DNA of 64,000 nucleotides from Candidatus Magasanikiibacteriota bacterium. GTDB taxonomy: Bacteria; Patescibacteriota; Patescibacteriia; Magasanikbacterales; UBA922. This document shows positions 2,285-35,984 of this stretch, piece by piece; positions within the stretch are counted from its first letter, which is position 1, and the number at the start of each line of letters is the position of its first letter. A model generated the notes under the pieces. The model did no database searches, had not been told where the DNA came from, and saw nothing but the letters and a program-made list of their open reading frames with translations. Both the position numbers and the translations under genes were made by a program. The stretch lies in assembly GCA_003482855.1 (NCBI GenBank), contig DMXO01000002.1, positions 112,114-176,113 on the forward strand, read 5' to 3'.

Positions 2285-3061
2285 TCAAAAACTCAAAAAA
2301 CTCAGATACCAGCTAAGTATTCGTTCACCCCACACCATTACTACAAACGTCGCGCTCGTCAAAAAAACCCCGAATGGCACCTGACTTTTCATTGTTTTCT
2401 TTTTTGAAACAAGTAAACCAACACTTATAATTGCCCCAACCACATATGCAATCCACAATGCCAAAAGCAACAATTTCCAACCCAAAATAACACCCATAAG
2501 TATACCAATCCTGATATCTCCTCCCCCCACCCAACGTCCTTTTGATAATATATATTGCAGAAGAAAAAAAAGACCACCCAAACAGGCACCGATAAGTAAG
2601 GGGAACCATTCACCCCCCCAAACAACATATCCCCCGATAAAAAATAAAATAACTGCTGACCCAAGTGTGATACTATCTACCACCTCCATATATATGAGAT
2701 CATATACAAAAATAAACGAAAGTACCCACATAACAAACCAATGCAATACTACTATAGGAAAGACCATCCCTACTACACTCCACTCAAACCATACAACAAA
2801 CACAAATACTATTCCCATCCATAACTCTACCAACGGATACTGCCATGATATTTTTTCTTTGCACATTCGACAACGGCTACGTAATAATAAAAAACTAAAC
2901 AATGGTATATTGTCATACCATGCAATCTGCTTTAAACAATGAGGACACTTAGACCGTTCTGTGATCTTATTGTGTGTATGGAGACGCCAAACAATAGCAT
3001 TCAAAAAACTGCCAAAAGACACTCCGAGTAATGCTACAATAAAATACAAAAATAACATCAT
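2285..3061 (-). CDS. pilD: prepilin peptidase (type IV leader peptidase/N-methyltransferase, A24 family)
   Basis: N-terminal CPHC...CRMC zinc-binding tetracysteine, multi-pass membrane protein, adjacent to pilin gene. Confidence 0.85.
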   Translation of the reverse strand: MMLFLYFIVALLGVSFGSFLNAIVWRLHTHNKITERSKCPHCLKQIAWYDNIPLFSFLLLRSRCRMCKEKISWQYPLVELWMGIVFVFVVWFEWSVVGMVFPIVVLHWFVMWVLSFIFVYDLIYMEVVDSITLGSAVILFFIGGYVVWGGEWFPLLIGACLGGLFFLLQYILSKGRWVGGGDIRIGILMGVILGWKLLLLALWIAYVVGAIISVGLLVSKKKTMKSQVPFGVFLTSATFVVMVWGERILSWYLSFLSF

Positions 3062-3080
3062 ATAGGCTTATTATAGCAAA

Positions 3081-3118
3081 AAAACAAAATAAAAAAAAGC
3101 CCCTTTTACGAGGCTTTT
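3081..3118 (-). terminator. putative rho-independent terminator downstream of pilin gene
   Basis: hairpin aaagcc..ggcttt followed by U-run on minus strand, between pilin stop (3136) and pilD start (3061). Confidence 0.4.
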
Positions 3119-3135
3119 TATTCATCAACCTAGAA

Positions 3136-3573
3136 CTATTGTGTAAGACCTGATGGGGTGGCACTCACTGTACCTGCTACGAAATTACCAGCGCCAACTT
3201 CGAGCACTGCGGTAATGACATAATCAGTACCAGCGCTAGAATTGTATGTGTAATATTCAGCTGAACCAGGACCTGCTGGGACAAGACCCATATATGGACT
3301 TGCACAACCAGAAGCTCCAAAACCACTAGAACCAAGACAAGTATAGTTACCTGTTCCAAGATTTACTTGGGCAGTAGTGGTAGGATATGAATTATTATCT
3401 GTATAGTACAATTCAAGTGCAGTCTGTACTTGTTTGACGTCAGCAAGACGCTTTGAGTCATTTGCTTTCTTACGTGCTGAACCTAGAGCAACTACAGCAA
3501 GTGTAGATAGCAAACCAATAATAGCGATAACAACCAAAAGTTCAATCAATGTAAAACCTTTCTTATTATTCAT
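3136..3573 (-). CDS. type IV pilin (prepilin with class III signal peptide)
   Basis: MNNKKGFTLIELLVVIAIIGLLSTLAVVAL: classic G/FTLIELL prepilin cleavage/N-methylation motif; strong SD GGAAGGGGGTGA 5 nt upstream of ATG at 3573 (ORF track start at 3582 is a GTG three codons upstream). Confidence 0.85.
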   Translation of the reverse strand: MNNKKGFTLIELLVVIAIIGLLSTLAVVALGSARKKANDSKRLADVKQVQTALELYYTDNNSYPTTTAQVNLGTGNYTCLGSSGFGASGCASPYMGLVPAGPGSAEYYTYNSSAGTDYVITAVLEVGAGNFVAGTVSATPSGLTQ

Positions 3574-3618
3574 GTGTATCACCCCCTTCCGATGCGAGAT
3601 GTATAGTTCCCATAATTT

Positions 3619-4002
3619 TTATAGGCCTAATACTTTTTTAACTTTTTCTACTGTTTCAGATGGTTTGAAATGTGCTTTGATAAGGTAGTCAACAGCACCC
3701 ATTTCAAGACCCTTTTCTACATCGTCTTTTTGACCCAAGTTGGTCAATAAGATAACGGGGATATCTTTTGTTGTTTCGTCCTTTTTGAGATTCTCCAAAA
3801 CAGCAAAACCATCCATTTTGGGCAACAAGATGTCAAGCAAGACAATATCCGGCTTTCTCTTTTTTACCGCCTCAAGGCCTGCTTCGCCATCTCCAGCTAC
3901 CGAGATATTAAATTTCTCCATCTCAAATTTGGTCTTGTAGATATTTGCCAAAAATGTATCATCCTCCACGAGAAGTATATGTATATCTTTCTTATCTGCC
4001 AT
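3619..4002 (-). CDS. single-domain response regulator (CheY-like receiver)
   Basis: MADKKDIHILLVEDD...DIVLLDILLPKMDGFAV...VILLTNLGQKDD...KAHF: receiver-domain acid pocket, phosphoacceptor Asp and conserved Lys; start taken at internal ATG (MADKK) rather than the upstream alternative start of the ORF track. Confidence 0.75.
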   Translation of the reverse strand: MADKKDIHILLVEDDTFLANIYKTKFEMEKFNISVAGDGEAGLEAVKKRKPDIVLLDILLPKMDGFAVLENLKKDETTKDIPVILLTNLGQKDDVEKGLEMGAVDYLIKAHFKPSETVEKVKKVLGL

Positions 4003-4078
4003 ACAAAAAATATTAAGATATATATAGTATATCAAAGAATAGATAAAAACCCTATATTTCGTTGTGGATAGAAAAATC

Positions 4079-5224
4079 TCAGAAATTTCGAAGTCCCAAA
4101 CCAATACTCACCGCCATACGGGGCCCTATTTCGCCCAATATACTCTTCAAACCATCCTGATATATGACACGAGCCCATGGATCACCCACAAACACTCTCA
4201 AAGGAAACATCTGTTGTATATACTCACTAATTGGAGGAAAAAGCCCTGCACCACCAGTTAGAATAATTTTTTCCGGACGTTTCGCCTCATTGCCACTCTG
4301 GTGCAAGTATAAATCAAGACTATATTGAATTTCTTTTGAGATAGGATCAAGGATACTCAAAAATAGGTCTGTGGTCATGCGTGACTGTAAAGATAGGTCT
4401 CTCTTTATCTGATCAACCTGCCCGATATCTACTCCGAGATGCTGGCTCAAAATTTTATCAAAATTATTACCCCCAATTTGGAGACTCCGGTGAGTCATCG
4501 GGACGCCGGCATCAATAATGAAAAAATTAGTACGTTCTGCACCCACATCGACCACCATAGACACTGTTGTATCTTTACCTACAAGGGAGCGGGCAAGGGC
4601 AAAAGCTTCAGTTTCGAGCTCCTCGAGTTGCAGGCCCGCGCGCTGAAATATGGCTGTATAAAAAGCCACAAGCGCTTTGGGGGCTGCTGTCACAAGAAGT
4701 GTCATATACTTCTTCTCTCGTTCTGGATCTTTGGTAATTTTTTGATGCACTATTTGCATGTCATCTATGGGACTGGTGATCATCTTGGCGACTTCTGCCC
4801 TCACAATCTGGGGTATTTCCTTATCACTTACATGAGGCAAATTGAGAATAGCATGAAATACGTACGATACTGGCAAACTTGAAGTAACACGGTGAGATTG
4901 TACCCGTGCTTTTTGAATCAACAATTTTAAAAGCTCTGCATATTCATTGATACGTGCATCTTTGAGGATAAGTTCTTGGGCAGAAGTTGGTTCTTTCTTG
5001 TCTTGCTTCTTTTTTTCATTTTCATACTGTATATCACGCTCGTGCAAGAGATCTTGTAGATCTTTCTCTGGAGGAGTCTGGACATGTACATCAAGTTCTT
5101 TATCAAGGATACCATATGTCCACAGTTGAGGTCTGCCTTTTGTCTTGTGTAATTCAACAAGCTTGATACCATGTGCACCAATATCTATGCCAAGATAATT
5201 TTCTTTTTTTGAGAATAAACCCAT
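4079..5224 (-). CDS. pilM: type IV pilus assembly ATPase-like protein PilM (actin-like fold)
   Basis: N-terminal GIDIGAHGIKLVEL motif typical of PilM/FtsA-like; 381 aa. Confidence 0.75.
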   Translation of the reverse strand: MGLFSKKENYLGIDIGAHGIKLVELHKTKGRPQLWTYGILDKELDVHVQTPPEKDLQDLLHERDIQYENEKKKQDKKEPTSAQELILKDARINEYAELLKLLIQKARVQSHRVTSSLPVSYVFHAILNLPHVSDKEIPQIVRAEVAKMITSPIDDMQIVHQKITKDPEREKKYMTLLVTAAPKALVAFYTAIFQRAGLQLEELETEAFALARSLVGKDTTVSMVVDVGAERTNFFIIDAGVPMTHRSLQIGGNNFDKILSQHLGVDIGQVDQIKRDLSLQSRMTTDLFLSILDPISKEIQYSLDLYLHQSGNEAKRPEKIILTGGAGLFPPISEYIQQMFPLRVFVGDPWARVIYQDGLKSILGEIGPRMAVSIGLGLRNF

Positions 5225-5290
5225 AAACGAAATTTATAAAATTGACTATAGTATACCATATTTCGAATTTTGACACTATAACAGGTTAAT

Positions 5291-5400
5291 AAATTCACCT
5301 AATTACCTAATTCACCTAATTTCTAACAAAGTTCCTAATATCTAAATTGAATCTTTTAATTTTTATTAGGTGAATTAGAAATTAGAAAATTAGGTGAATT
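5291..5400. repeat. nested inverted repeats / iteron-like cacctaatt motifs between MBL gene 3' end and pilM start
   Basis: aattcacctaatt (5292-5304) pairs with aattaggtgaatt (5388-5400); inner aattcacctaat (5309-5320) pairs with attaggtgaatt (5366-5377); cacctaatt occurs 3x direct, aattaggtg 2x inverted; overlaps the last codons and stop of the MBL gene. Confidence 0.5.
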
Positions 5401-6312
5401 CTCTGATATTTCGATACCATTTATTCCAATTCCAAATTCTATATCTCCCTGCTGATCCGTTCTCCACACCGTACTCGACGCTCGTTCAAGCCGTTTCAAA
5501 ACACGACGAGAAGGATGGCCAAATTTATTACTTACTCCCGCCGAAGCAATCGCATGTAAAGGCGTAACTACGTTGATAAATTCCTGTATTGATGAACTGT
5601 CACTGCCATGATGACCAAGTTTGAGTATATCTGAATCAAGCTGATCTCCATATATTGAAAGCAAATATTTTTCCAAAGGCTCTTCGGCATCACCCATCAT
5701 CAGTACTGAGTACCCTCCATAGGATAGCTCAAAAATAATAGACGTATTATTATTGTTGGATTCCTTATTCAAACCTGGAATTTTCGAATCACCAGACAAA
5801 GAATGATCCGGATACAAAAAATGCAATGAAGAACTTCCAATATTCCAAACATCCTCTTTGTTTATTTCAATATGATCGCCACTTTCTAAATCTTTTGCAC
5901 TCAAAAAAGCATCCCACTGCGAATCGTTATTCTTCTCGAATCCAGTATGTACAATATGCCGCACATCAAACCTATTGAGTACATCTTCACAACCTCCAAA
6001 ATGATCTGAATCCGGGTGTGTGACAACCATATAGTCAATATCGTGGTCATAATACGACATGACACGCCCGAGTGCTTCCAAAACCCTCGCATCTTCCGAA
6101 CAATCCACAAGCATTTGTTGACCATTATCAAATTCAATAAACGTGGCGTCTCCTTGACCAATATCCAAAAAAGTCATTTTAATTCCTTCAAATTGTTCTA
6201 CCTTTTCTCCAGCCACGTCTTGTGTGACTTCATTTTTATCACGCTTCACAAACCAAAGCATGGCACATACTATGACGAGAAGAATACCTATTGTGATAAG
6301 CAGTTTTTTCAT
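5356..6312 (-). CDS. membrane-anchored metallo-beta-lactamase fold protein, ComEC C-terminal (DNA internalisation nuclease) domain-like
   Basis: N-terminal TM helix then FLDIGQGDA...VVTHPDSDHFGG...LKLGHHGS: MBL HxHxDH-type motifs in the arrangement seen in ComEC/Rec2 C-terminal domains. Confidence 0.75.
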   Translation of the reverse strand: MKKLLITIGILLVIVCAMLWFVKRDKNEVTQDVAGEKVEQFEGIKMTFLDIGQGDATFIEFDNGQQMLVDCSEDARVLEALGRVMSYYDHDIDYMVVTHPDSDHFGGCEDVLNRFDVRHIVHTGFEKNNDSQWDAFLSAKDLESGDHIEINKEDVWNIGSSSLHFLYPDHSLSGDSKIPGLNKESNNNNTSIIFELSYGGYSVLMMGDAEEPLEKYLLSIYGDQLDSDILKLGHHGSDSSSIQEFINVVTPLHAIASAGVSNKFGHPSRRVLKRLERASSTVWRTDQQGDIEFGIGINGIEISENSPNFLISNSPNKN

Positions 6313-6379
6313 AGCGCGAGTAGAAAGTAAAAAGTATAAAGTTGAAAATTATATATAATCAATTATTTCTTTCTACTTG

Positions 6380-6985
6380 TTACTTTATACACTTAATAAT
6401 CTGATTCACCCACACCTCACCCTCTTTTACAAACTGCTCTTCCTCAACACTAAACGCCAATTCTTCGAGCAACTCTCTAATTTTTTCAGGTCTGTGATAA
6501 TATGAATCAATAATGATTTTTCCTTTCTCCGTTTCAACCTCAGGCGGGCGCTTTTGGTTTATATTCGTAACTACAAAAAAACTGCCGGGTTTGAGCACAC
6601 GGTATACTTCATCAAAAAATCTTTTGGGATCTTTCAAATGTACAATTAGAAATGTGGCGATAACTCCATCAAATGCCTCATCGGAAAACGGCAAATTTTC
6701 CGCATCTCCAACCTCGACTTTTACCTTTCTACTTTTTACTTTCAACTTATTCAACATCTCTTCCGAAATATCCAACGCGACAACATCTGATCCTCTTTTG
6801 GCAAGTTCAACTGAAACCCGCCCTGTCCCTGCACCAACATCAAGAATTTTCTTTCCTAAAACGTCTCCAACCAAATTCCACAAAACATCTTTTTCAAAAC
6901 TATCTAGATAGGATTTCTTTTTGTCGTAATTTTTTGCAGCGAGATTGTAGCCTTCTTGTGAATCGAGTATTTTTATTTTTTTCAT
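6380..6985 (-). CDS. class I SAM-dependent methyltransferase
   Basis: ILDVGAGTGRVSVELAKRGSDVVALDISEEML (motif I GxGxG) and VLKPGSFFVV; 201 aa. Confidence 0.85.
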   Translation of the reverse strand: MKKIKILDSQEGYNLAAKNYDKKKSYLDSFEKDVLWNLVGDVLGKKILDVGAGTGRVSVELAKRGSDVVALDISEEMLNKLKVKSRKVKVEVGDAENLPFSDEAFDGVIATFLIVHLKDPKRFFDEVYRVLKPGSFFVVTNINQKRPPEVETEKGKIIIDSYYHRPEKIRELLEELAFSVEEEQFVKEGEVWVNQIIKCIK

Positions 6986-6988
6986 ACT

Positions 6989-8509
6989 TCAAACTTTATA
7001 CTTTCTACTTTTAACTACCACAAAGTATATCATAATTCCATACAGAATCACCATTACCCACCATGGGAAACTGATATCAAGCGAAGAAAAATGTAAACCA
7101 GCAAACCATTTCACTGTTTGGACGATATATTCCATTCCCACCCAGGATATCCATGATAATACGAGAGCCAGTGGCTTGAATATGAAACTAATAAGAACAG
7201 TAAAAAAACCAAAAGCCATAATGATAGGGATCGTCCAAAGAATAAGCACATTTACAATTGGCGCAACAATAGATAGCCGTCCAAATTGAAACAAAATTAA
7301 TGGTAATGTGGCAATAATAGCGGCGAGTGTTGATAACAAAGATTCTCGCAATCCCAAAAATTCTGGAATTTTATCAAATGGCTTACGAATGGCTGGGGTA
7401 AGATACACAAGGCCAAGTGTAGAAATAAATGATAATTGGAATCCAGCGTCATATATCAAAATATAAGGATTTTGCAATGTCATGACTGTTGCTGTGAGTA
7501 CAAGAACATTTCCAATACGCGAAGTTCTGCCAACCTGTTTTGCGAGCAATGTTATAATACCCATTATCCCCGCTCGTACAACTGATGCGCTTGCTCCAGC
7601 AAAAATGACAAATAACACAATTCCACCGACAATAATCCAGAATGCTTTTTTGCGTGGAATATATAAATACACGCACATGGTAATCAAAATCGTCGCAATA
7701 ATCGTAATATTATACCCAGAAATTGCCACAATATGTGTAACACCTGTTTTTGAAAATAAATCTTGTAACTCACCAAGTCCACCACGATAGCCGTATAATA
7801 ATCCTGCCATAAAACTCGCATATGGTTCATGCCACAACTCATTTATTCTTTGTGCAATTACTTGTTTCAACGTAAATATACCACGCAATACACCATTCCC
7901 CTCACCTGATCCCATCTTTTTGATTTCAGAATTTTGACATAGCGTAAATACACCGTATCTCGCTAAATATTTATCATAGGCAAAATCATTTATTTGTTCT
8001 GGCTTCTCAAGATTGCATTTAATTTCTAATCTGTCACCGTATTCATATCGCGGATATAACGTGGATTTCAAATATATATATCCTTCTATGACATAATTTT
8101 GTACGGGTGGCTCTAGAGCCACCCCTTCACCAGCAATCATTTCTTCAATGCCCACAATATATCGCACGCCGTCCATCCTCACATCCGGCTCTACACTTAC
8201 ATACCCAACAACCGTCTTCTTTACCCCAACATAATGCACAATATTTTGCTCTGTATCTTGCGGAATTGAAATGCTATATCTCCATATTCCAAATGTTGCA
8301 AAAAATATACAGAATAATATAAAGCGGAATAATTTATTTTTCCAATAGATTATGATGAAAAAAATAGAAACGGATAGAGATACAAAGAGATAGAGTACAT
8401 CTATTTTAAAATCAAAAATTGAAACAATTCCAACGCCCAATAAAAAACAAAAGCAAAACGAAAAAAACGTCTTGCTTTTTGATTGTATAATCTGTTGTAT
8501 CCCCTCCAT
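6989..8509 (-). CDS. comEC: ComEC/Rec2 competence-domain membrane protein (lacks MBL domain)
   Basis: multi-pass membrane protein with competence-domain signature ...VTHIVAISGYNITII...; ORF track start (8527) is a TTG overlapping leuS stop; first ATG at 8509 (MEGIQQ) 2 nt after AAGGG-like SD region; either start is possible. Confidence 0.75.
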   Translation of the reverse strand: MEGIQQIIQSKSKTFFSFCFCFLLGVGIVSIFDFKIDVLYLFVSLSVSIFFIIIYWKNKLFRFILFCIFFATFGIWRYSISIPQDTEQNIVHYVGVKKTVVGYVSVEPDVRMDGVRYIVGIEEMIAGEGVALEPPVQNYVIEGYIYLKSTLYPRYEYGDRLEIKCNLEKPEQINDFAYDKYLARYGVFTLCQNSEIKKMGSGEGNGVLRGIFTLKQVIAQRINELWHEPYASFMAGLLYGYRGGLGELQDLFSKTGVTHIVAISGYNITIIATILITMCVYLYIPRKKAFWIIVGGIVLFVIFAGASASVVRAGIMGIITLLAKQVGRTSRIGNVLVLTATVMTLQNPYILIYDAGFQLSFISTLGLVYLTPAIRKPFDKIPEFLGLRESLLSTLAAIIATLPLILFQFGRLSIVAPIVNVLILWTIPIIMAFGFFTVLISFIFKPLALVLSWISWVGMEYIVQTVKWFAGLHFSSLDISFPWWVMVILYGIMIYFVVVKSRKYKV

Positions 8510-8519
8510 AGTAAGCCCT

Positions 8520-11500
8520 TTAGACAACTATAGAAATCAGCTTTCCCTTCACATAAATCACTTTTTTCGGTTCTTTCCCTTCCAGCCATTTGATCACTTT
8601 TCCACTTCTTAATGCTTCTACCTTTGCATCTTCTTCTGAAATATCTGTTGAAACAGTAATCGTATCGCGCAATTTTCCATTTATCTGTATAGCAAGGGTG
8701 ACAGTATTTTCTTTAGTTAATTCTGGATCGTATACTGGCCAAGGCTGAGTGGTCACAGTATCTTTATTCCCTAGTCTATACCACAATTCTTCAGACATAT
8801 GAGGTGCAAAAGGTGAAAGAAGTTTAATGAGTACAGTATACCCAACTTTTGAAATTTTTTCTTCTTTTAGGAGTACATTCGTGAACTGCATAAGCGCTGC
8901 AATGGCAGTATTAAATTTCAATGCTGCAACATCTTCGCCAACTTTTTTAATTGTTTGGTGCACAAGCGTTGTTAAACTATTACTCTTTGCTTCTGCCTCT
9001 ATTACTTTTTCTTGTAGATTCCAAACTTTATCAAGAAAACGCCTAATTCCTCTTACTCCATTCGTATCCCACGGCTTATCTTCCTCCAACGGCCCCATAA
9101 ACATTTCATACATCCTCATCGTATCCGCACCAAATTCATTGACCACATCTGTTGGATTTATCACATTCCCCCATCTCTTGCTCATCTTTCTATTGTCTGG
9201 TCCAAGAATCAATCCCTGGTGTCTATGAACTTTGAATGGTTCGTCTCCGACCAAGTCGGATCCGCCTTGGGCGGAAAAATCAATATAACCAGCATCGTAT
9301 AATACTTTGGTAAAAAATCGTGAATACAACAAATGCCCGTTCACATGTTCTGGCCCGCCAAGATAAAAATCAACGGGCATCCATTTTTTCAACGCTTCGG
9401 GCGATGCAAACTGCTGATCATTTTTGGGATCAAGATAGCGATAATAATACCAAGATGAACACATAAATGTATCAAGCGTATCTGGTTCGCGATGCCATCC
9501 CTTACCATATCTCTTTTCAACACCTTTTTGAAAATCTTCTGAATACGTCAATGGCGATTGACCTGTTGGTTTGAAGTCTACATCGTCTGGGAGAAGAACA
9601 GGAAGATCAGATTCAGAGACTGGCTTGAGACCAGTGACAATAGATTCCTCTAAAACAGAAGGTTCTATCTTCCCATTAAAATGTCTATCATTTGGTCTTG
9701 CTTTCACCAAACGAGCATCTAACAATTTTTGCATTTCTTCCAAATGTTCTTTTTTAATAGTTTTATAATCACAATCTGCAATCACTACAAATTCATCTGA
9801 TGATGATTTAATTTTTTCAAAATCAAATTCAAATGAATCACTGGCTTCTACGTCTGGACGTTTTTTGTCAGGAAAATCTGGTCGTAATACCGTGTCAACC
9901 AAAATCAATTTTGCAATTTTATTTTTCAATTTCTCCAAAATACGAAATGCAACTGGACCACCCAAACTATGTGCGACTATCACAGTATTTTCATCGATCG
10001 TGGTATTATTCAAAATATATTCGGCCCACTCAACTACATTTGGTTTGTCATTATGTGGCAAGTCTGGTGAAAAGACAGCATGTCCAAGCTGTTCTAACTC
10101 TTTTTTTAACCAAGGACGGAAATCATTATTACCCGTGGCTAAATAACCATGTATAAACACATAATTATATTTTCTATTTTTTCTTTCTTCATTAAACAAC
10201 ATCGGAATCGGTGCACCCCAAAACCGCTGACGAGAAACCGACCAGTCGCGGAGTTTGTATTGTACTTTTCGTTTGCCTATTCCCTTTTCTTCAAGCCATT
10301 GAATCATTTTTTCTTTGGCTTCTTGAGTTGAAAGGCCATCTAAAAAATTAGAATTTATTGCAGTGCCTTCACCTGAAAACAATCTCCCTGTTTTTTCCAA
10401 TGCCCTTCTTATAAATATTTCCTCTGAACCATTGTAAGTTTTCAATTTTTCAATAGCTTCATCTGGAGCCAACCAATTGGCCTCGTAATCTTCATAGCTC
10501 TCAAATGCAGTATCAGTTTTTTTATCACTCAACAATTTAAGCTTCAAGACCCTTTGTAATTTGTTCCATTGAATATTTTTGTCAACCGCATAAAAATTTG
10601 ATTCAATCATTCCTAGATCATCTACAACTTCATAATCCGTATACCCTGCTTCTTCGCGGAGTTCACGCTGTACTGTGTCTTCCACTGTCTCCCCCCGCTC
10701 CATCCCCCCAGATGGTAAACGATAAATATTAAACTTTTTATTAAACAAAACCAAAACCTTATCATCTTTAAAGACAACGGCCGCTGCTGAATCACGGTGT
10801 TTAGCGCTTTTATCAAAACCACCACAATGTTGAACAACTACATCTTTTATTGGTAAATTATATTTCTTCGCAAACTCAAAATCTCTTTCATCATGCGCTG
10901 GTACTGCCATAATTGCGCCAGTTCCATATGTTGCAAGTACATAATCAGCAACAAAAATAGGAATCTCTTCATTTTTCACGGGATTAATTGCTTTTATTCC
11001 TTTTAATTCTACACCTGTTTTTTCTTTCTGCACTTGACGATCAAGTTCAGTCTTTTTTGATGTTGCTTCAATATATTTTTCAACTTCATCCCAATTCTGG
11101 ACTTCGGACTTTAGACTACGGACTACAGCATGTTCAGGTGCTAGAACCATATATGTAGCTCCAAACAAAGTATCAGGTCTTGTAGTAAAAACCGTTATCT
11201 TCTTTTCTTGATTGTGGTCTGAAGTCTGAAGTCTGAAGTCTACTTCCGCTCCTTCCGACTTCCCAATCCAATCCTTCTGCCTTTTCTTCGTCTCTTCTGG
11301 CCAATCAAGTTTATCAATATCATTCAATAATCGTTCGGCATAATCAGTAATTTTGATATACCACTGTTCCATTTCTTTTTGAATAATCAAAGTATCACAT
11401 CGCTCGCAATGTCCTTCTTTTACTTGATCATTTGCAAGAACTGTTTTGCATGAATCACACCAATTCACTGATTGTTTTTTTCTATAGGCTAAACCGCGTT

Positions 11501-11936
11501 TATAAAATAATAAAAAAAACCACTGTGTCCATTTGTAGTAATCTGGATTATGCGATCCCACTTCCCTATCCCAATCTACAGAAATGCCCAAAGATTTTAT
11601 TTGACTACGAAAATTGTTCACTGCTGTCTCAGTGCTTTTTGCTGGATGTACATTTGTTTTAATTGCGTAATTCTCTGCAGGTAAACCAAAACTATCCCAG
11701 CCAATCACTTGTAAAACTTTCTTTCCAGTCATGCGCTGATATCGCGCGTAAATATCGCACGCTGTATACACTTCCGCATGGCCGACATGAAGACCGCTTC
11801 CGGATGGATATGGGAGCTGTGGAAGAATGTAAAACTTGTTTTCAGAATTAATATCTTCTGGAGTCTTAAACAACTTTTGTTCTTCCCAAATTTTTTGCCA
11901 TTTTGATTCTATTTCTTGAGGATTATACTTCTCCAT
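8520..11936 (-). CDS. leuS: leucyl-tRNA synthetase with two inserted domains (Nudix hydrolase-like ~nt 10377-10814; alpha/beta serine hydrolase-like ~nt 9633-10175)
   Basis: HVGHAEVY (HIGH), TTRPDT...VPAHDERD (CP1 editing), GEGTAINS...RDWSVSRQRFWGAPIP, WHREPDTLDTFMCSSWYY, KMSKR (KMSKS); plus GGMERGETVEDTVQRELREEAGY (Nudix box) and FIHGY...VIVAHSLGG (GxSxG) not found in canonical LeuS; 1138 aa. Confidence 0.9.
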   Translation of the reverse strand: MEKYNPQEIESKWQKIWEEQKLFKTPEDINSENKFYILPQLPYPSGSGLHVGHAEVYTACDIYARYQRMTGKKVLQVIGWDSFGLPAENYAIKTNVHPAKSTETAVNNFRSQIKSLGISVDWDREVGSHNPDYYKWTQWFFLLFYKRGLAYRKKQSVNWCDSCKTVLANDQVKEGHCERCDTLIIQKEMEQWYIKITDYAERLLNDIDKLDWPEETKKRQKDWIGKSEGAEVDFRLQTSDHNQEKKITVFTTRPDTLFGATYMVLAPEHAVVRSLKSEVQNWDEVEKYIEATSKKTELDRQVQKEKTGVELKGIKAINPVKNEEIPIFVADYVLATYGTGAIMAVPAHDERDFEFAKKYNLPIKDVVVQHCGGFDKSAKHRDSAAAVVFKDDKVLVLFNKKFNIYRLPSGGMERGETVEDTVQRELREEAGYTDYEVVDDLGMIESNFYAVDKNIQWNKLQRVLKLKLLSDKKTDTAFESYEDYEANWLAPDEAIEKLKTYNGSEEIFIRRALEKTGRLFSGEGTAINSNFLDGLSTQEAKEKMIQWLEEKGIGKRKVQYKLRDWSVSRQRFWGAPIPMLFNEERKNRKYNYVFIHGYLATGNNDFRPWLKKELEQLGHAVFSPDLPHNDKPNVVEWAEYILNNTTIDENTVIVAHSLGGPVAFRILEKLKNKIAKLILVDTVLRPDFPDKKRPDVEASDSFEFDFEKIKSSSDEFVVIADCDYKTIKKEHLEEMQKLLDARLVKARPNDRHFNGKIEPSVLEESIVTGLKPVSESDLPVLLPDDVDFKPTGQSPLTYSEDFQKGVEKRYGKGWHREPDTLDTFMCSSWYYYRYLDPKNDQQFASPEALKKWMPVDFYLGGPEHVNGHLLYSRFFTKVLYDAGYIDFSAQGGSDLVGDEPFKVHRHQGLILGPDNRKMSKRWGNVINPTDVVNEFGADTMRMYEMFMGPLEEDKPWDTNGVRGIRRFLDKVWNLQEKVIEAEAKSNSLTTLVHQTIKKVGEDVAALKFNTAIAALMQFTNVLLKEEKISKVGYTVLIKLLSPFAPHMSEELWYRLGNKDTVTTQPWPVYDPELTKENTVTLAIQINGKLRDTITVSTDISEEDAKVEALRSGKVIKWLEGKEPKKVIYVKGKLISIVV

Positions 11937-13522: not shown

Positions 13523-13713
13523 TATAGCAGTGCCATCTTTCCTCCAGTCCTTCTGTGATCTTTCTGTCTGTTCTTTGGTCAAATGAATAGTTATATGTTG
13601 TACATTTCCATCACCTCTACCAGACTCAAATCCTGGAAAACCTCTATGTTCTTTCTTCGCCTCATCAGAGAGAGTAAGTGTGTCACGTCTTTCTTCAACA
13701 AAGGGTCTATCAA
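13513..13713 (-). repeat. direct repeat copy 1 (~200 bp, ~90% identical to 24376-24571): 3' fragment of a paralog of the small ORF at 24382..24666
   Basis: alignment by eye of 13513-13713 with 24376-24571; repeat edge (…caaagggtctatca) coincides with stop codon of giant gene A (13710-13712); minus-strand reading gives …VDRPFVEERRDTLTLSDEAKKEHRGFPGFESGRGDGNVQHITIHLTKEQTERSQKDWRKDGTAI* in the +1 frame relative to gene A, with no start codon. Confidence 0.7.
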
Positions 13714-16700
13714 CTGTCGTGGTCTTTCTTTTTCAAAACTTCATTTCGTGCAATCAAGCCACCCAAACCACCAGTTTTTTTACTTGAAAAATCCACCTCT
13801 TCACTCTTCTTTTCCTCATAGCCTAGTTTATCATATGTAACATAATACACACTTGGTCCGACAAGAGCCGCATATCTCCCTTTTTTATCGGTAACGCTCG
13901 TCGCAATAAGCTTGTTGTATGCCGCGTCAAATATACGCACCACGACTTTACCAAGTGGCTTTTCAGTTAATGCCTCTAAGACTTTACCAAAGTTACCACC
14001 AAGCTTCTTGCTGGCAAAACGACGAAGCATATCATAGACAAAGATATGGAACACAAGCATAACAGCAATATACCACTTTGGTGATATGATGAAAGACACT
14101 GCAGTTAAAATGACGCCAGACAACGCGAGAGTCTTTTGGAATGTTTGACGTGTGTATTCTTTGATAACTTTTGCTGTAGAATCCACTTTCGTTTCAGGAT
14201 CAAGCGGGATATTATAATTCATCTCAAATTGTTCTTCAGTCACTTCAAATTCTTTGCCATGATATAAATTGATATAGTTGCTGTCTTCATCAAATTTCTG
14301 TAGATATTCACTAAAACCAACAAAGCCGGGCTTTTGAATTTCGATACGATATTTGCCTTCGTCAGCAATGATAAAAAATCGTCCTTGGCTATCAGTAACT
14401 TGCGTCTGTACTACTTGTAAATTTGAGGTATTGACCAAACGCACAGTTGCTAAGTCTATTGGCTGTTTAGTATATGCATTGTATACCACACCCCACTGTT
14501 TTCTCTTGCGTCTACGCAAAAGGACGAGTGGCTGAGTAAAAATATAGCGTAAGTATGCAAGAATATTCGGTAGCTGAAACCCGACTGCAACATTTGCGAC
14601 AGCTATGATAGCGACAGACGGCGCGACAACTTTTTCATTAACTGATTCTACAACAGGATTATTTACAACTCTTTTAATAACTTCAAATGTTTTGCGTGTA
14701 AAATCTTTTATGGAATCAGGAATAATATCAGCTATAGTTTCTGTTATTTTTTTGAAAATATGACCAATGCTGTCCGTTATATATCCGCTTATATCAGTTA
14801 TAACATCGACAAAAGAATTAAAACCAAACTGACTGTCTGAAACATTACTACTGTCTTCTCCCTCTAATCTATCTGTAACATCAGGTAAACTATCATTATC
14901 TTTTTCATCTGCTTCTTCTGATTCGTCCCTACACAAAGACGAACAGCCATCACCTGAAACTACATTGCCATCATCGCATGACTCACCTTTTTCTACAATC
15001 ATATTGCCGCACGCTATCTCAGGTATGATCTTTACAAGCTTACATCTCAAATTACAATAATATCCTTCAGGAGCACTGCCATCGCATGCTTCACTGTCTT
15101 CTTTAATACCATTTCCGCACACTCTTACTATTTCTTCACACACATCTCCAATGCCGTCACTGTCCTTATCCAGTTGGTTAAAATTTTTATGATAGGGACA
15201 ATTATCACAAACATTGCCCACCTTATCTCCATCGATATCCAATTGATCAGTATTAGGAATATCAACACAATTGTCAGCCCCATCAAGCACTTTATCCTTG
15301 TCCTTGTCTTTACAAGTATTGGTACTATCATGGGGACACGTGTCACACAAATTACCAACGCCATCTTTGTCGCTATCCAACTGGCCGGCATTTGATACGC
15401 TTGGACAATTATCAATGCCATCTTGAATGCCATCGCCATCTGTGTCACCAGAACAAATATACAACGCAGGATTTTCAAGGCATTGATCAACGGTAGTGAC
15501 TGGCTTTATACCTATCCCTACCGTATTGCCATACAAGAGAGTGGAATCATTTGGATCAATTACTGCCGCAGCGCTCACAGAAGTCATTGGCGCTTTGACG
15601 CCAAAACGAAGATATATATATTCTGGAAAATCATATAACTTCGCTTTTATACTGCGGTACATGAGAATTGATGTGATGCCTGTCTTTGCAGATGCACCGC
15701 TCCAGGTAGCAGGATAAACGAAAAACTTCTCACCTACATTATTGTCGCTGAATGGTTTGTCACTTATATACACCTCATACTCTGTCGCCTTTTTACACAA
15801 TTGAAATGTAAAATATATATCACCTCTCGAACTATTTTTTACCAACTTCAAAAGACCAGTGCCATCAAGAGGAACTTCTTCGTCAGAGTAAGGTTCCAAT
15901 TTTAAGATATCAGGCGGTGTATCAAGGCATGGATGTTTGGGAGAAATACCTATATATCCTATGCTCGCGCTTCTGCTAAAAATAACATTCCGCGCACCCG
16001 GGGCATAAAATTTTACACAGACAGTCTTGTTGCCTGGGCCATCGGAAAAAGTAAATGGCACACGCTTTGAGGAGCCATTGGGCAAAGGAATTTGATCCAA
16101 AGTCTGTTCTGTATCACATCCTTGCCCGCCTTGTACTTCAAATGGCGTATAATAATGCGTTGCTGAATTGCTTGAAATAGTAAGAAGCACGTCTCTTTTA
16201 TTTGTCGTACTTTCTCCGCCATTTATAACCACAGTGCCATTGGCATCCTGTGGACATGTATTGGTCTCATTGCAATTAGGAGGCGGAGGCGGCGGGGGCG
16301 TAGAAGGGTTCCCGATATTCACTGTCACACCTGATGCATTTACAAAAGATGTTTCTACATCAGCTGTATTTTTTGCTTTTACACGAAATGTATAGGTGCC
16401 ATTGGACAAACCACTAAATATGTACGAAGTACTCGTGACCCAGCCAGAATTTAGAGAGGCATTTGAACTGTCTTCAACATAATATGCTGCGGCTGTGCCA
16501 GACCATGAAACAGTAACATCTTGATTTGCAACTGAAGCACTCAGTGACGACAGGCTTGCCAATGTATAATTTGAAATAGCGTCAGTCGAAGATGTCATTT
16601 CCCCATCTACATTACGCGCTGTCACACGAAAAGAATAACTCTGGTTTGGGGTAAGCCCTGCAAAAGCATAAAAAGCGTCTGCTATCCACCCAGAGTTCAG

Positions 16701-19475: not shown

Positions 19476-19680
19476 TATTACCACTTTCCATTTTTTATTC
19501 AATTGTCCTAATAAAAATGACATATTATACAAAACTATCCGCCAACAAAAGGAAGATTCCTGATATAACAAATAACCTGTAATACAAGTTCATTTGGTTC
19601 ATGCTAAATTGTGCTTTAGAGATAGTCTTAGAGACAAGAGAATTATATCATTCTTTATGCGCCTCAACAACATAATACTG

Positions 19681-35042: not shown

Positions 35043-35984
35043 TTATGGACTTTTAATTTTATGGGCTTTTGGATACTTTATCCCCAACACAATATACCCC
35101 TGACTCTCTACCCATCTACCTACGGTAAGCATCTCAACCAATCCATACAATTCCCAAAACGCAGTTGAAAATGGGTGTGTCTTTTGTTTAATCCAAAAAA
35201 ATATCTTGTTAAAAAATTTAAGTATAGGAAAATTTTTCTGATGTTGCAAGGCATCGTATAATTCATCGGGGTGGGCAAAAAACTTAGCCCAAAAAGTAGA
35301 GTACATTCTTTTTATATCAAACCCAGCCTCATACAATAGTGCCCTAAGCTCATGTTTGCTATACAATGAAATGTGAAACTCGGCATGTGGATCAATATTT
35401 AGTCCACGCTTCAAAAGACAATTTCGTATCCATGCATGCTTTCCCAATTTTGATTCACTAAACATGGCAAGCCTACCACCAGGTCTTAAGACACGATACA
35501 ATTCATCAAGCCACGCAGGTACATCGCGTACATGACCAAGAACATCTGACGTATATACGACATCAAATGATTCGTCTTCAAACGGCAAACGCTTCCCGTC
35601 GTAATGCTGAAACTCAGCCCACACACCATATTCTTTGACCCGCTTCCGTGCTACATCTATTTGCATAGCAATGACATCTACTCCCACGACTTCGACACGC
35701 TTGCCCCACAACTTCTTCATTTCAATAACAGATGCGCCAGTACCACACCCAACATCAAGTATTCGCACATGTGCTCCCGTACTTTTGTGCTTGACTGCTT
35801 TTGTGATAAATCGGTAGAGCAAAAATTTTTTTGGAAAGAAAAACAATTTAAAAAGGTCCTTCCATGTAGCCATCTCTCCCGTGATGACCGGTCGTGCATC
35901 CCAAAATTCAGTATGTGTCCCTTCTATTACTCCCCAGCCTTTGGTTGTTGAATTTTTTTCGTTCATATGAGAGTATTGTATCAT
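35043..35984 (-). CDS. class I SAM-dependent methyltransferase
   Basis: ILDVGCGTGASVIEMKK...VLRPGGRL. Confidence 0.8.
   Translation of the reverse strand: MIQYSHMNEKNSTTKGWGVIEGTHTEFWDARPVITGEMATWKDLFKLFFFPKKFLLYRFITKAVKHKSTGAHVRILDVGCGTGASVIEMKKLWGKRVEVVGVDVIAMQIDVARKRVKEYGVWAEFQHYDGKRLPFEDESFDVVYTSDVLGHVRDVPAWLDELYRVLRPGGRLAMFSESKLGKHAWIRNCLLKRGLNIDPHAEFHISLYSKHELRALLYEAGFDIKRMYSTFWAKFFAHPDELYDALQHQKNFPILKFFNKIFFWIKQKTHPFSTAFWELYGLVEMLTVGRWVESQGYIVLGIKYPKAHKIKSP

What the first reader, a model, noticed from the sequence alone, without database searches (positions are those of the whole stretch)
5356..8527. Split ComEC: competence-domain membrane protein and a separately encoded, membrane-anchored MBL nuclease domain, with a methyltransferase between them and translationally coupled to leuS
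The leuS stop and the ComEC-like start are 2-11 nt apart. The ComEC-like stop and the methyltransferase start are 3 nt apart. The 512-aa ComEC homologue ends after the competence (channel) domain. The metallo-beta-lactamase domain that normally forms the ComEC C-terminus is instead a separate 318-aa gene (5356..6312), two genes downstream, with its own N-terminal TM anchor. A SAM-dependent methyltransferase gene sits between the two halves. The window also carries type IV pilus genes (pilD, pilin, pilM, pilT) that would feed DNA uptake.
Basis: partly seen in the sequence, partly recalled or inferred. Interest (0 to 1): 0.5.

Follow-up and report, generated by a model that had tools for sequence, protein, structure and literature searches.

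The report
ComEC DNA-uptake protein split in two
In this candidate-phyla-radiation bacterium the DNA-import protein ComEC is encoded as two genes, a membrane channel and a separately membrane-anchored nuclease. The same split was found in every related patescibacterial genome sampled, so it is a real lineage-wide gene fission and not an error or a one-off.

Summary
On the minus strand lie leuS (8520..11936), a ComEC channel protein with DUF4131/OB and Competence domains only (6989..8509, or 8527 from an upstream TTG), a class I SAM methyltransferase (6380..6985) and a 318-aa protein (5356..6312). That last protein has one N-terminal transmembrane helix and a ComEC-type metallo-beta-lactamase (MBL) nuclease domain.

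- **Identity of the MBL.** Its best sequence and structure matches are ComEC C-terminal domains, and all catalytic motifs are intact.
- **Not a frameshift.** All 71 patescibacterial loci sampled carry a stand-alone MBL of about 290 aa. In 50 split loci, ComEC-N lies upstream on the same strand. Thirteen non-CPR loci (Chloroflexi, Bacillus, Chitinophagales) carry the fused form of about 790 aa.
- **Break point.** It falls in the cytoplasmic loop before the last transmembrane helix (TM11 of the cryo-EM structure), so both halves keep their topology.
- **Methyltransferase.** It is a lineage-specific passenger. Other lineages have nothing, a superoxide dismutase, NUDIX or guanylate kinase at that spot.
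- **Most likely function.** A two-subunit ComEC: a channel plus a nuclease acting in trans. Physical assembly is inferred, not shown.
- **Coupling.** Translational coupling to leuS is plausible from a 10-nt spacer but untested.

Verdict: a new variant of a known kind, of moderate interest.

The parts
6989..8509 (-). comEC-N: membrane DNA-channel subunit of 506 aa from ATG 8509 (512 aa if the upstream TTG 8527 is used). It ends 7 residues after its last hydrophobic helix, with a basic tail KSRKYKV.
   Evidence: ORF list and sequence. Pfam DUF4131 plus Competence only. TIGR00360 ComEC_N-term E 3.9e-20. Aligns to residues 140-470 of full-length ComEC 30bt. Identical public protein P0121 is 506 aa. 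Hydropathy: 3 hydrophobic segments before the OB fold, several after it, the last at aa 487-505, and a +4 tail.
7946..8392 (-). DUF4131 region of ComEC-N, containing the OB fold (aa 46-194 in 512-aa numbering).
   Evidence: PF13567 E 5.6e-14. A beta-rich block at residues 97-200 of the 506-aa numbering in the pseudo-fusion AF2 model, with pLDDT mostly above 80.
7013..7801 (-). Competence (channel) domain of ComEC-N (aa 243-505 in 512-aa numbering).
   Evidence: PF03772 E 4.4e-50, covering profile positions 1-265 of 270.
6380..6985 (-). Class I SAM-dependent methyltransferase (201 aa, no transmembrane segment) inserted between the two ComEC halves. It is a passenger gene, not a conserved part of the system.
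   Evidence: Methyltransf_11 E 1.7e-27. All NCBIfam hits are below their cut-offs. Best PDB relatives are phosphoethanolamine N-methyltransferases at E 1e-19. Orthologue at the same position in L001, L002, L015-L019 but absent in L003, L007, L008, L010, L013, L014.
6313..6379 (-). 67-nt spacer upstream of the MBL gene, with a sigma-70-like match (TAGAAA-16-TATAAT, 6375..6348). Possibly a separate promoter for the nuclease subunit.
   Evidence: Best-scoring promoter-like site in 5150..8700 at 10 of 12 matches. The total number of sites is no higher than in shuffles, so this is only a lead.
5356..6312 (-). comEC-C: stand-alone, membrane-anchored ComEC-type MBL nuclease subunit (318 aa).
6247..6303 (-). 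N-terminal transmembrane anchor of the MBL protein (aa 4-22), the counterpart of TM11 in fused ComEC.
   Evidence: Kyte-Doolittle mean of 2.98 over 19 residues. AF2 helix 2-27. Conserved in 16 of 16 homologues. All fused relatives have a hydrophobic helix directly before the MBL domain, preceded by a basic loop. TM11 is described in PMC13539106.
5398..6183 (-). MBL (alpha-beta/beta-alpha) nuclease domain, aa 44-305.
6001..6018 (-). Active-site motif H99-P-D101-S-D103-H104 (H-x-D-x-D-H).
   Evidence: Read from the sequence. Invariant in 16 of 16 homologues. H99, D103 and H104 are conserved in 13 of 13 fused and at least 53 of 54 other stand-alone sequences. The same motif form is found in the Moorella ComEC nuclease (PMC12455585).
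8520..11936 (-). leuS, the upstream neighbour. Conserved synteny; its stop codon lies 10 nt before the comEC-N ATG.
   Evidence: TIGR00396 E 7e-281. leuS is found upstream of comEC-N in 14 of the first 19 loci.
2285..5224 (-). Downstream type IV pilus genes: pilM (4079..5224), a response regulator (3619..4104), a pilin (3136..3582) and a prepilin peptidase (2285..3061). This is conserved context for DNA uptake.
   Evidence: Pfam PilM_2, Response_reg, N_methyl/T2SSG, and A24_N_bact/Peptidase_A24. The same gene order is found in L001 and L003.

Best explanation
The two genes are the products of an ancient fission of comEC that is fixed across Patescibacteria (CPR).

The break lies in the cytoplasmic loop between the last helix of the channel domain (TM10) and the peripheral helix TM11, which in fused ComEC carries the nuclease domain to the outer face of the membrane.

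- The first gene product keeps the three N-terminal helices, the extracytoplasmic OB fold and the ssDNA channel, and ends in the cytoplasm with a basic tail.
- The second gene product starts in the cytoplasm (Met-Lys-Lys), crosses the membrane once with the TM11-equivalent helix, and displays a catalytically intact ComEC-type MBL nuclease outside the membrane.

Inferred mechanism:
1. The two polypeptides reassemble in the membrane into a ComEC-like machine.
2. The type IV pilus encoded next door brings in dsDNA.
3. The OB fold binds it.
4. The nuclease, acting in trans, degrades one strand.
5. The other strand passes through the channel.

Shown here: domain identities, intact catalytic residues, the break point, and conservation of the split and of gene linkage. 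Inferred: physical association, nuclease activity and the role in DNA uptake. The methyltransferase is a passenger inserted between the halves in part of the Magasanikbacteria.
For: - **Domain identities.**. The two proteins cover complementary parts of one model (TIGR00361: positions 83-351 and 442-663) and of one solved chain (30bt: residues 140-470 and 533-783).
- **Structure.** The AF2 model's best match is the ComEC nuclease domain 9ic4.
- **Catalytic residues.** D50, G52, Q53, G54, D55, H99, D103, H104, D208, H234, H235 and H266 are conserved equally in fused and stand-alone forms.
- **Split versus fused.**
  - The top 120 homologues of the MBL are all stand-alone proteins of 284-326 aa.
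  - The top 120 homologues of ComEC-N are all 351-526 aa with no Lactamase_B domain.
  - The top 120 homologues of a Chloroflexi ComEC are almost all about 790 aa, nearly all carrying all three domains.
- **Loci.** Of 86 loci, 13 are fused (all non-CPR), 50 are split with ComEC-N upstream on the same strand, and 23 have the MBL alone within the fetched DNA.
- **Adjacency.** In 15 loci the two genes are directly adjacent, from a 37-nt overlap to a 79-nt gap, including ATGA overlaps.
- **Break point.** Fused proteins show TM10, then a basic loop of about 22 aa, then a hydrophobic helix, then the MBL. The split proteins end and start within that loop.
- **Cryo-EM context.** TM11 is peripheral, mobile and not channel-lining. 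The MBL is held by a flexible linker and positioned by a small OB-fold interface (PMC13539106).
- **Pseudo-fusion model.** AF2 folds both halves confidently (mean pLDDT 86.2, pTM 0.67). Low confidence is confined to the anchor and linker.
- **Context.** Conserved synteny with type IV pilus genes.
Against: - No direct evidence that the two proteins associate. Output from the AF2 pseudo-fusion gives no interface information. No solved or predicted full-length ComEC was available in the structure libraries for comparison. pTM is only 0.67.
- In 23 loci no ComEC-N lies within the fetched upstream DNA, so linkage is not universal.
- The anchor-to-domain linker is about 20 aa in Magasanikbacteria, against about 5 aa in fused forms. 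That would also suit a freely diffusing surface nuclease.
- A possible separate promoter precedes the MBL gene.
- The crude neighbour-joining tree does not resolve whether there was one fission or several, and it does not give a direction.
Confidence: 0.7

Rival explanations
1. The stand-alone MBL is homologous to the ComEC nuclease but now works independently of the channel. It would be a membrane-tethered surface DNase that degrades environmental or host DNA to feed nucleotide salvage in an organism that cannot make nucleotides. It would have no physical complex with ComEC-N.
For: - It has its own transmembrane anchor and a long, low-confidence linker (pLDDT below 50 at aa 25-39).
- A promoter-like site lies in its own upstream spacer.
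- 23 loci have no ComEC-N nearby.
- Unrelated genes are tolerated between the halves, including an opposite-strand superoxide dismutase.
- The isolated ComEC nuclease domain is active on its own in vitro, though weakly (PMC12455585).
Against: - Same-strand linkage downstream of comEC-N in 50 of 73 non-fused loci, often with overlapping stop and start codons.
- In fused ComEC the isolated nuclease has poor rate and no measurable DNA affinity without the OB fold (PMC12455585).
- Tn-seq in a cultured saccharibacterium suggests the com system is not needed for nucleotide acquisition (PMC10633639).
Confidence: 0.2
2. The two-gene state is ancestral. Patescibacteria would preserve the pre-fusion stage of ComEC evolution, and the three-domain protein of other bacteria arose later by fusion of adjacent genes.
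For: - Ancestral-state reconstruction by Pimentel and Zhang favours a Competence-only ancestor with later gains of Lactamase_B (PMC6299819).
- The gene order N-then-C in CPR equals the domain order in fused proteins.
- In the neighbour-joining tree the fused Chloroflexi sequences nest among stand-alone CPR sequences.
Against: - Fused forms occur in distant phyla: Bacillus, Chitinophagales, Chloroflexi and Legionella and Moorella. A single fission on the CPR stem is therefore more parsimonious.
- The tree is unrooted in effect, distance-based, and has very short deep branches.
- Two Anaerolineae stand-alone MBLs (L056, L081) nest inside the fused Chloroflexi clade, which shows that fission does occur.
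Confidence: 0.07
3. The 318-aa protein is not a DNA nuclease. It would be another extracytoplasmic MBL hydrolase, such as a phosphorylcholine esterase like pneumococcal Pce/CbpE or a beta-lactamase-like enzyme, that merely resembles the ComEC domain.
For: - NCBIfam lists a weak hit to the AHM B3-like metallo-beta-lactamase family at 84 bits.
- A paper argues for multifunctional MBL-fold proteins in CPR (PMC10459063).
Against: - ComEC hits are far stronger. PDB sequence E is 7e-25 for ComEC against 5.8e-5 for CbpE. TIGR00361 gives 125 bits, against 84 bits for blaAHM whose cut-off is 590.
- The residue pattern matches ComEC.
- The gene is linked to comEC-N.
Confidence: 0.03

Closest known systems
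Full-length ComEC/Rec2 (DUF4131-Competence-Lactamase_B), e.g. Bacillus subtilis ComEC and the Neomoorella carbonis cryo-EM structure (PMC13539106)
   Same: All three domains are present, in the same order along the DNA, with the same H-x-D-x-D-H nuclease motif. A transmembrane helix lies directly before the nuclease domain. Type IV pilus genes are nearby.
   Different: The protein is cut into two polypeptides in the TM10-TM11 cytoplasmic loop. In this genome an unrelated methyltransferase gene lies between them. The linker from anchor to nuclease domain is about 20 aa instead of about 5. Neither half reaches the TIGR00361 cut-off alone (125 and 60 bits against 190).
ComEC proteins of the 'DC' domain profile (DUF4131 plus Competence, no Lactamase_B) catalogued by Pimentel and Zhang 2018 (PMC6299819)
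   Same: The 506-aa protein on its own has exactly this profile.
   Different: Here the 'missing' nuclease domain is not lost. It is encoded by a separate gene downstream. That study counted only domains on the Competence-bearing polypeptide and did not consider this possibility.
EndA of Streptococcus pneumoniae, a membrane-anchored nuclease that degrades the non-transforming strand alongside ComEC (described in PMC8579336 and PMC12455585)
   Same: The concept is the same: a separately encoded, membrane-anchored extracytoplasmic nuclease acting in trans with the ComEC channel.
   Different: EndA is not related to the ComEC MBL domain. The statement that it has a different nuclease fold comes from my own knowledge and was not tested here. 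The protein in this window is the ComEC nuclease domain itself.
MAG0480 family ComEC-like proteins of mycoplasmas (NCBIfam NF045979)
   Same: Short ComEC-like channel proteins without an MBL domain. ComEC-N hits this model weakly (E 1.4e-15, 57 bits).
   Different: The score is well below the 150-bit cut-off, so ComEC-N is not a member.

Membership tests
ComEC/Rec2 (full-length, TIGR00361 equivalog) | Competence (PF03772) polytopic channel domain | tested here: met
   E 4.4e-50, covering profile positions 1-265 of 270, in the 512-aa protein.
ComEC/Rec2 (full-length, TIGR00361 equivalog) | N-terminal DUF4131 region with OB fold | tested here: met
   PF13567 E 5.6e-14. A beta-rich block is modelled with high pLDDT.
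ComEC/Rec2 (full-length, TIGR00361 equivalog) | ComEC-type MBL nuclease domain with metal-binding motifs (DxGQGD, H-x-[HD]-x-D-H, GD, HHGS, GHP) | tested here: met
   Present in the 318-aa protein.
ComEC/Rec2 (full-length, TIGR00361 equivalog) | All three domains on one polypeptide | tested here: not met
   There are two ORFs separated by a 201-aa gene. The two-gene state is conserved in relatives.
ComEC/Rec2 (full-length, TIGR00361 equivalog) | Score at or above the curated cut-off of TIGR00361 (190.05 bits) | tested here: not met
   125.0 bits for the MBL protein and 60.4 bits for ComEC-N, each covering its own part of the model.
ComEC/Rec2 (full-length, TIGR00361 equivalog) | Transmembrane helix (TM11) immediately N-terminal to the nuclease domain, placing it outside the membrane | tested here: met
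   Hydropathy and the AF2 helix in the MBL protein. The equivalent helix is present in 13 of 13 fused relatives. The actual membrane topology was not tested experimentally.
ComEC/Rec2 (full-length, TIGR00361 equivalog) | Imports ssDNA and degrades the complementary strand | not testable with these tools
   This needs genetics or biochemistry.
ComEC 'DC' profile (DUF4131 plus Competence only) | Competence and DUF4131 present, Lactamase_B absent from the same polypeptide | tested here: met
   All 120 top homologues lack Lactamase_B, and all but one partial sequence carry both other domains.
Pce/CbpE phosphorylcholine esterase | Closest sequence relationship to Pce, plus choline-binding repeats | tested here: not met
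   Sequence E is 5.8e-5, against 7e-25 for ComEC. Pfam reports no domain other than the MBL.
AHM subclass B3-like metallo-beta-lactamase (NF049846) | Score at or above the curated cut-off (590 bits) | tested here: not met
   84.1 bits.

The most novel reading that the evidence does not exclude
Across Patescibacteria, ComEC is an obligate two-subunit machine. Uncoupling the nuclease lets the cell set channel and nuclease levels independently. It could then switch between importing a strand for recombination and simply shredding surface-bound DNA for nucleotide salvage.

A corollary is that many of the roughly half of bacterial ComECs scored as 'lacking the nuclease domain' may in fact have it in trans. 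That would answer the open question of how the non-transforming strand is removed in those organisms.
Probability: 0.25. Interest if true: 0.65.

Novelty: new variant of a known kind. Interest (0 to 1): 0.45.

Why it matters
Silale et al. (PMC8579336) state that almost half of ComEC proteins lack the nuclease domain, and that how the non-transforming strand is degraded in those organisms is an open question. Here, in a whole major bacterial radiation, the domain is not lost. It is encoded separately, with its own anchor that corresponds to TM11.

This has four consequences:
- Domain-loss counts that look only at the Competence-bearing polypeptide overestimate loss.
- Nature has already done the experiment of cutting ComEC at the TM10-TM11 loop. 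That supports the cryo-EM view that TM11 and the nuclease form a loosely attached module, and it suggests a way to express and study the channel and nuclease separately.
- Annotation pipelines name the second gene only 'MBL fold metallo-hydrolase'. Competence potential in CPR genomes is therefore under-described.
- In the one patescibacterium where natural transformation was shown to need comEC (PMC10633639), the separate nuclease gene, if present there too, is an obvious next knockout target.

Tried and rejected
- **Frameshift or misassembly.** Rejected. A full gene lies between the halves. The start and anchor are conserved. Identical proteins occur in independent public assemblies (P0001, P0121). 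The split occurs in every patescibacterial locus sampled.
- **Methyltransferase as a functional part.** Rejected as unsupported. It is present in only some Magasanikbacteria loci (L001, L002, L015-L019). Elsewhere there is nothing, a 223-aa protein with no Pfam match, an opposite-strand Fe/Mn superoxide dismutase (13 loci), NUDIX, guanylate kinase, and others. It is a generic cytoplasmic small-molecule-type methyltransferase.
- **Block alignments without bridging sequences.** MAFFT misaligned one half or the other. Adding duplicates of the query did not help.
- **Bridged alignment.** Six natural fused ComECs were used as bridges and the prediction ran. The output has no inter-domain information.
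- **Neighbour-joining tree of MBL domains.** Too poorly resolved at depth to give the direction or number of fission events.
- **Literature searches.** Searches for a prior description of split ComEC in CPR found none (COG2333/COG0658, ComEC with candidate phyla radiation, the MBL-in-CPR paper, Baker 2016, Pimentel 2018, Silale 2021, Stedman 2025). The library covers only open-access papers, so absence is not proof.
- **Promoter and terminator scan.** Total counts are at chance level.


Full report
**1. What is there**

The region is read on the minus strand. The ORF list and the sequence show four consecutive genes.

| Gene | Coordinates | Length |
|---|---|---|
| leuS | 8520..11936 | 1138 aa |
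| ComEC-like gene | 6989..8527 from the first possible start (TTG) | 512 aa |
| Methyltransferase | 6380..6985 | 201 aa |
| MBL-fold gene | 5356..6312 | 318 aa |

- Homologues of the ComEC-like protein align only from residue 7-11 onward. An identical 506-aa protein in public assemblies (P0121, Candidatus Magasanikbacteria, contig of 617,594 nt) starts at the ATG at 8509. I take 8509 as the start, 10 nt after the leuS TAA.
- The ComEC-N stop and the methyltransferase start are 3 nt apart.
- The methyltransferase stop and the MBL start are 67 nt apart.
- The organism is a Magasanikbacteria-type member of the Patescibacteria (CPR), judged from source names of the nearest homologues.

**2. Domain identities**

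- The 512-aa protein has DUF4131 (E 5.6e-14) and Competence (E 4.4e-50) and nothing else.
- The 318-aa protein has Lactamase_B. Its best NCBIfam match is the C-terminal third of the full-length ComEC/Rec2 model (TIGR00361 positions 442-663, E 2.6e-36). ComEC-N matches positions 83-351 of the same model.
- Against solved structures, the two proteins map to complementary parts of the same ComEC chain, 30bt: ComEC-N to residues 140-470 and the MBL to residues 533-783.
- An AlphaFold2 (AF2) model of the MBL protein has mean pLDDT 79.7. It shows an N-terminal helix at residues 2-27, a disordered linker at 25-39, and an alpha-beta/beta-alpha domain at 44-305.
- The motif THPDSDHFGG has the H-x-D-x-D-H form reported for the ComEC nuclease (PMC12455585).
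- Residues D50, G52, Q53, G54, D55, H99, D103, H104, D208, H234, H235 and H266 are conserved alike in 13 fused ComECs and about 70 stand-alone relatives.

**3. Not an artefact, and not peculiar to this genome**

- The 120 best homologues of the MBL protein are all 284-326 aa.
- The 120 best homologues of ComEC-N are all 351-526 aa and none has Lactamase_B.
- The 120 best homologues of a Chloroflexi ComEC are almost all about 790 aa, and nearly all carry all three domains.
- Gene neighbourhoods of three relatives show a conserved order: inositol monophosphatase, leuS, sometimes a PDDEXK_3 gene, comEC-N, a variable or absent gene, then the MBL. In L001 and L003, pilM, a response regulator, a pilin and a prepilin peptidase follow; L005 has other genes downstream.
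- A scan of one genome per species returned 80 loci. I analysed these together with the six loci above using phmmer on all ORFs.

| State | Loci | Notes |
|---|---|---|
| Fused ComEC | 13 | All non-CPR: Anaerolineae, Dehalococcoidia and other Chloroflexi, one Bacillus, one Chitinophagales |
| Stand-alone MBL, ComEC-N upstream on the same strand | 50 | |
| Stand-alone MBL, no ComEC-N in the fetched flank | 23 | Several of these contigs are short |

- Every patescibacterial locus has the split form. The lineages named in the records include Magasanikbacteria, Campbell-, Yanofsky-, Zambryski-, Kaiser-, Yonath-, Wildermuth- and Moranbacteria, Gracilibacteria, Peribacteria and Minisyncoccia.
- In 15 loci the two genes abut, from a 37-nt overlap to a 79-nt gap, including ATGA overlaps.
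- Thirty-three ComEC-N/MBL protein pairs from the two database searches share the same longest-contig length. This indicates that they lie on the same contig.

**4. Where the protein was cut**

- In all 13 fused relatives the MBL domain is preceded by a hydrophobic helix, which is preceded in turn by a basic, polar stretch of about 20 aa. An example is ...TAQETSRLKALWQRLTDRFSTK-ALVAGLSIVVLLVWVAAFS-LPDGK-LHVTFLDVGQGD.
- The window's ComEC-N ends seven residues after its last hydrophobic helix (aa 487-505) with KSRKYKV, a net charge of +4. The MBL protein begins MKK, then has a 19-residue helix with Kyte-Doolittle mean 2.98, then the domain.
- The same short basic N-terminus followed by a transmembrane helix is seen in all 16 aligned Magasanikbacteria homologues and in most other stand-alone sequences.
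[quoted passage not shown] A short cytoplasmic helix lies between TM10 and TM11. TM11 is peripheral, not channel-lining, mobile, and absent from the map of one protomer. The nuclease domain is attached through a flexible linker and positioned by a small interface with the OB fold (PMC13539106).
- The fission therefore lies in the TM10-TM11 cytoplasmic loop. The second gene product equals TM11 plus the nuclease. By the positive-inside rule and by homology, both products should keep their original topology. This is inferred, not measured.
- One lineage-specific difference: in Magasanikbacteria the anchor-to-domain linker is about 20 aa, against about 5 aa in fused forms and most other CPR.

**5. 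The gene in between**

- An orthologous methyltransferase sits between the halves in L001, L002, L015, L016, L017, L018 and L019, with phmmer E values from 1e-72 to 1e-99. It is absent from L003, L007, L008, L010, L013 and L014, where the halves are adjacent. In L005 a 223-aa protein with no Pfam match takes its place.
- These loci are spread over the Magasanikbacteria part of the tree. The insertion is therefore probably old within that group, with repeated loss.
- In 13 Paceibacteria-type loci the intervening gene is an Fe/Mn superoxide dismutase on the opposite strand. Others have a NUDIX hydrolase, guanylate kinase, a PaaX/Cas2-like protein or a VTT-domain protein.
- The methyltransferase itself is a generic class I enzyme with no transmembrane segment: Methyltransf_11, all NCBIfam hits below cut-off, and best PDB relatives phosphoethanolamine N-methyltransferases.
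- I treat it as a passenger in the operon.

**6. Do the halves work together?**

This is the inferred step.

In favour:
- Persistent same-strand linkage and frequent stop/start overlap.
- An intact active site after what must be a very long time apart.
- The published finding that the isolated nuclease domain is slow and has no measurable DNA affinity unless the OB fold is on the same chain (PMC12455585). That would select for continued association.

Attempted test:
- A pseudo-fusion (ComEC-N residues 1-506 followed by the MBL protein) was accepted. Its alignment was block-structured and bridged by six natural fused ComECs.
- The model has mean pLDDT 86.2 and pTM 0.67. Low confidence is confined to residues about 501-550 (the anchor and linker) and the C-terminal tail.
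- No inter-domain measure is returned. The structure libraries contained no full-length ComEC and the AlphaFold database library was unavailable.
- The test shows only that both halves fold as expected. It leaves the docking question undecided. It is also partly circular, because fused sequences were in the alignment.

The main rival is an independent surface DNase for nucleotide scavenging. I give it about 0.2. Tn-seq in a cultured saccharibacterium argues that the com system is not needed for nucleotide supply, while comEC is needed for transformation (PMC10633639).

**7. Coupling to leuS**

- leuS lies upstream of comEC-N in 14 of the first 19 loci. In L003 the two genes overlap by 4 nt. 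In L001 and L005 a small PDDEXK_3 gene lies between them.
- In the window the spacer is 10 nt, with AGGG 7-10 nt before the ATG.
- Co-transcription and coupling are plausible but untested.
- The best sigma-70-like match in 5150..8700 lies in the 67-nt spacer before the MBL gene. A hairpin followed by a T-run lies just inside comEC-N at 8449..8479. Both kinds of site occur at chance frequency in this AT-rich DNA.

**8. Comparison with what is known, and novelty**

- ComEC, its three domains and the nuclease function of its C-terminal domain are well established.
- Variation in domain content is catalogued, but as gains and losses on the Competence-bearing polypeptide (PMC6299819).
- Silale et al. 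call the fate of the non-transforming strand in nuclease-less ComECs an open question.
- CPR papers mention comEC only as present. A survey of MBL-fold genes in CPR does not mention ComEC.
- I found no paper describing the split, in a library limited to open-access texts.
- Annotation pipelines partly reflect it. JGI names some of the 300-aa proteins 'competence protein ComEC', while NCBI names them 'MBL fold metallo-hydrolase'.
- I classify this as a new variant of a known kind: a lineage-wide gene fission of ComEC at a structurally sensible point.

**9. Verdict**

- Observation: confirmed.
- Interpretation: supported. The split is a clade trait, the methyltransferase is incidental, and coupling is untested.
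- Interest: 0.45.
- Confidence that these are the two halves of ComEC produced by fission or retained as separate genes: about 0.95.
- Confidence that they act together as one DNA-uptake machine: about 0.7.

Noticed in passing
window 8520..11936 (- strand), LeuS aa 380-504 and 593-754: The essential leucyl-tRNA synthetase is 1138 aa. It carries two inserted domains between the editing domain and the C-terminal half of the catalytic core: a NUDIX hydrolase and a Ser_hydrolase/alpha-beta hydrolase. Presence varies among close relatives. Both are present in the window and L001. Only the hydrolase is present in L003, L005, L013 and L015. Only NUDIX is present in L007, L008, L009, L014 and L016. 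Neither is present in L012 (785 aa) and L019 (809 aa). A literature search found no description.
   Followed up: partly
window 5356..6312, MBL residues C71 (VDC) and C108 (GGC): Two cysteines are invariant in 17 of 17 Magasanikbacteria stand-alone MBLs. In all other stand-alone and fused relatives they are replaced together, by G/A/S/T at the first site and L/I/F/A at the second. This co-varying pair could be an extracytoplasmic disulfide.
   Followed up: partly
L020, L023, L027, L039, L041, L047, L058, L060, L064, L065, L066, L079 and one more locus (between comEC-N and the MBL gene, opposite strand): In 13 Paceibacteria-type loci an Fe/Mn superoxide dismutase gene sits between the two ComEC halves on the opposite strand. 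This is a recurrent, lineage-specific insertion at the same fission site.
   Followed up: partly
L056:5806-6750 and L081:3223-4080: Two Anaerolineae loci carry a stand-alone, transmembrane-anchored ComEC-type MBL with no ComEC-N in the flank. Both cluster inside the fused Chloroflexi clade in the neighbour-joining tree. This suggests an independent fission or duplication outside CPR.
   Followed up: no
L001:4374-4757, L002:957-1340, L005:4078-4473: A small PDDEXK_3 (nuclease-fold) gene of about 130 aa is inserted between leuS and comEC-N in some Magasanikbacteria. It is absent from the window.
   Followed up: no
window 8449..8479 (- strand): A 12-bp hairpin followed by a T-run lies just inside the 5' end of comEC-N, about 40-70 nt after the leuS stop. 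It could attenuate read-through from leuS. The number of such sites in the region is at chance level.
   Followed up: no
window 13710..19571 and 19741..24180 (- strand): Two very large ORFs of 1953 and 1479 aa carry fibronectin-III, thrombospondin-3, CarboxypepD_reg and NosD/beta-helix-like domains. They are probably giant surface proteins.
   Followed up: no
L007, L008, L009, L012, L019 and many 'binchicken' TPA records: The record titles call these MAGs 'uncultured Gammaproteobacteria' or 'Candidatus Saccharibacteria'. Their leuS-comEC-N-MBL synteny and 41-55% MBL identity place L007-L019 with Magasanikbacteria. Organism names of these third-party assemblies are unreliable.
   Followed up: no
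window 35043..35984 (- strand): There is a second Methyltransf_11-type class I methyltransferase (313 aa) elsewhere in the window. Such enzymes are not specific to the comEC locus.
   Followed up: no
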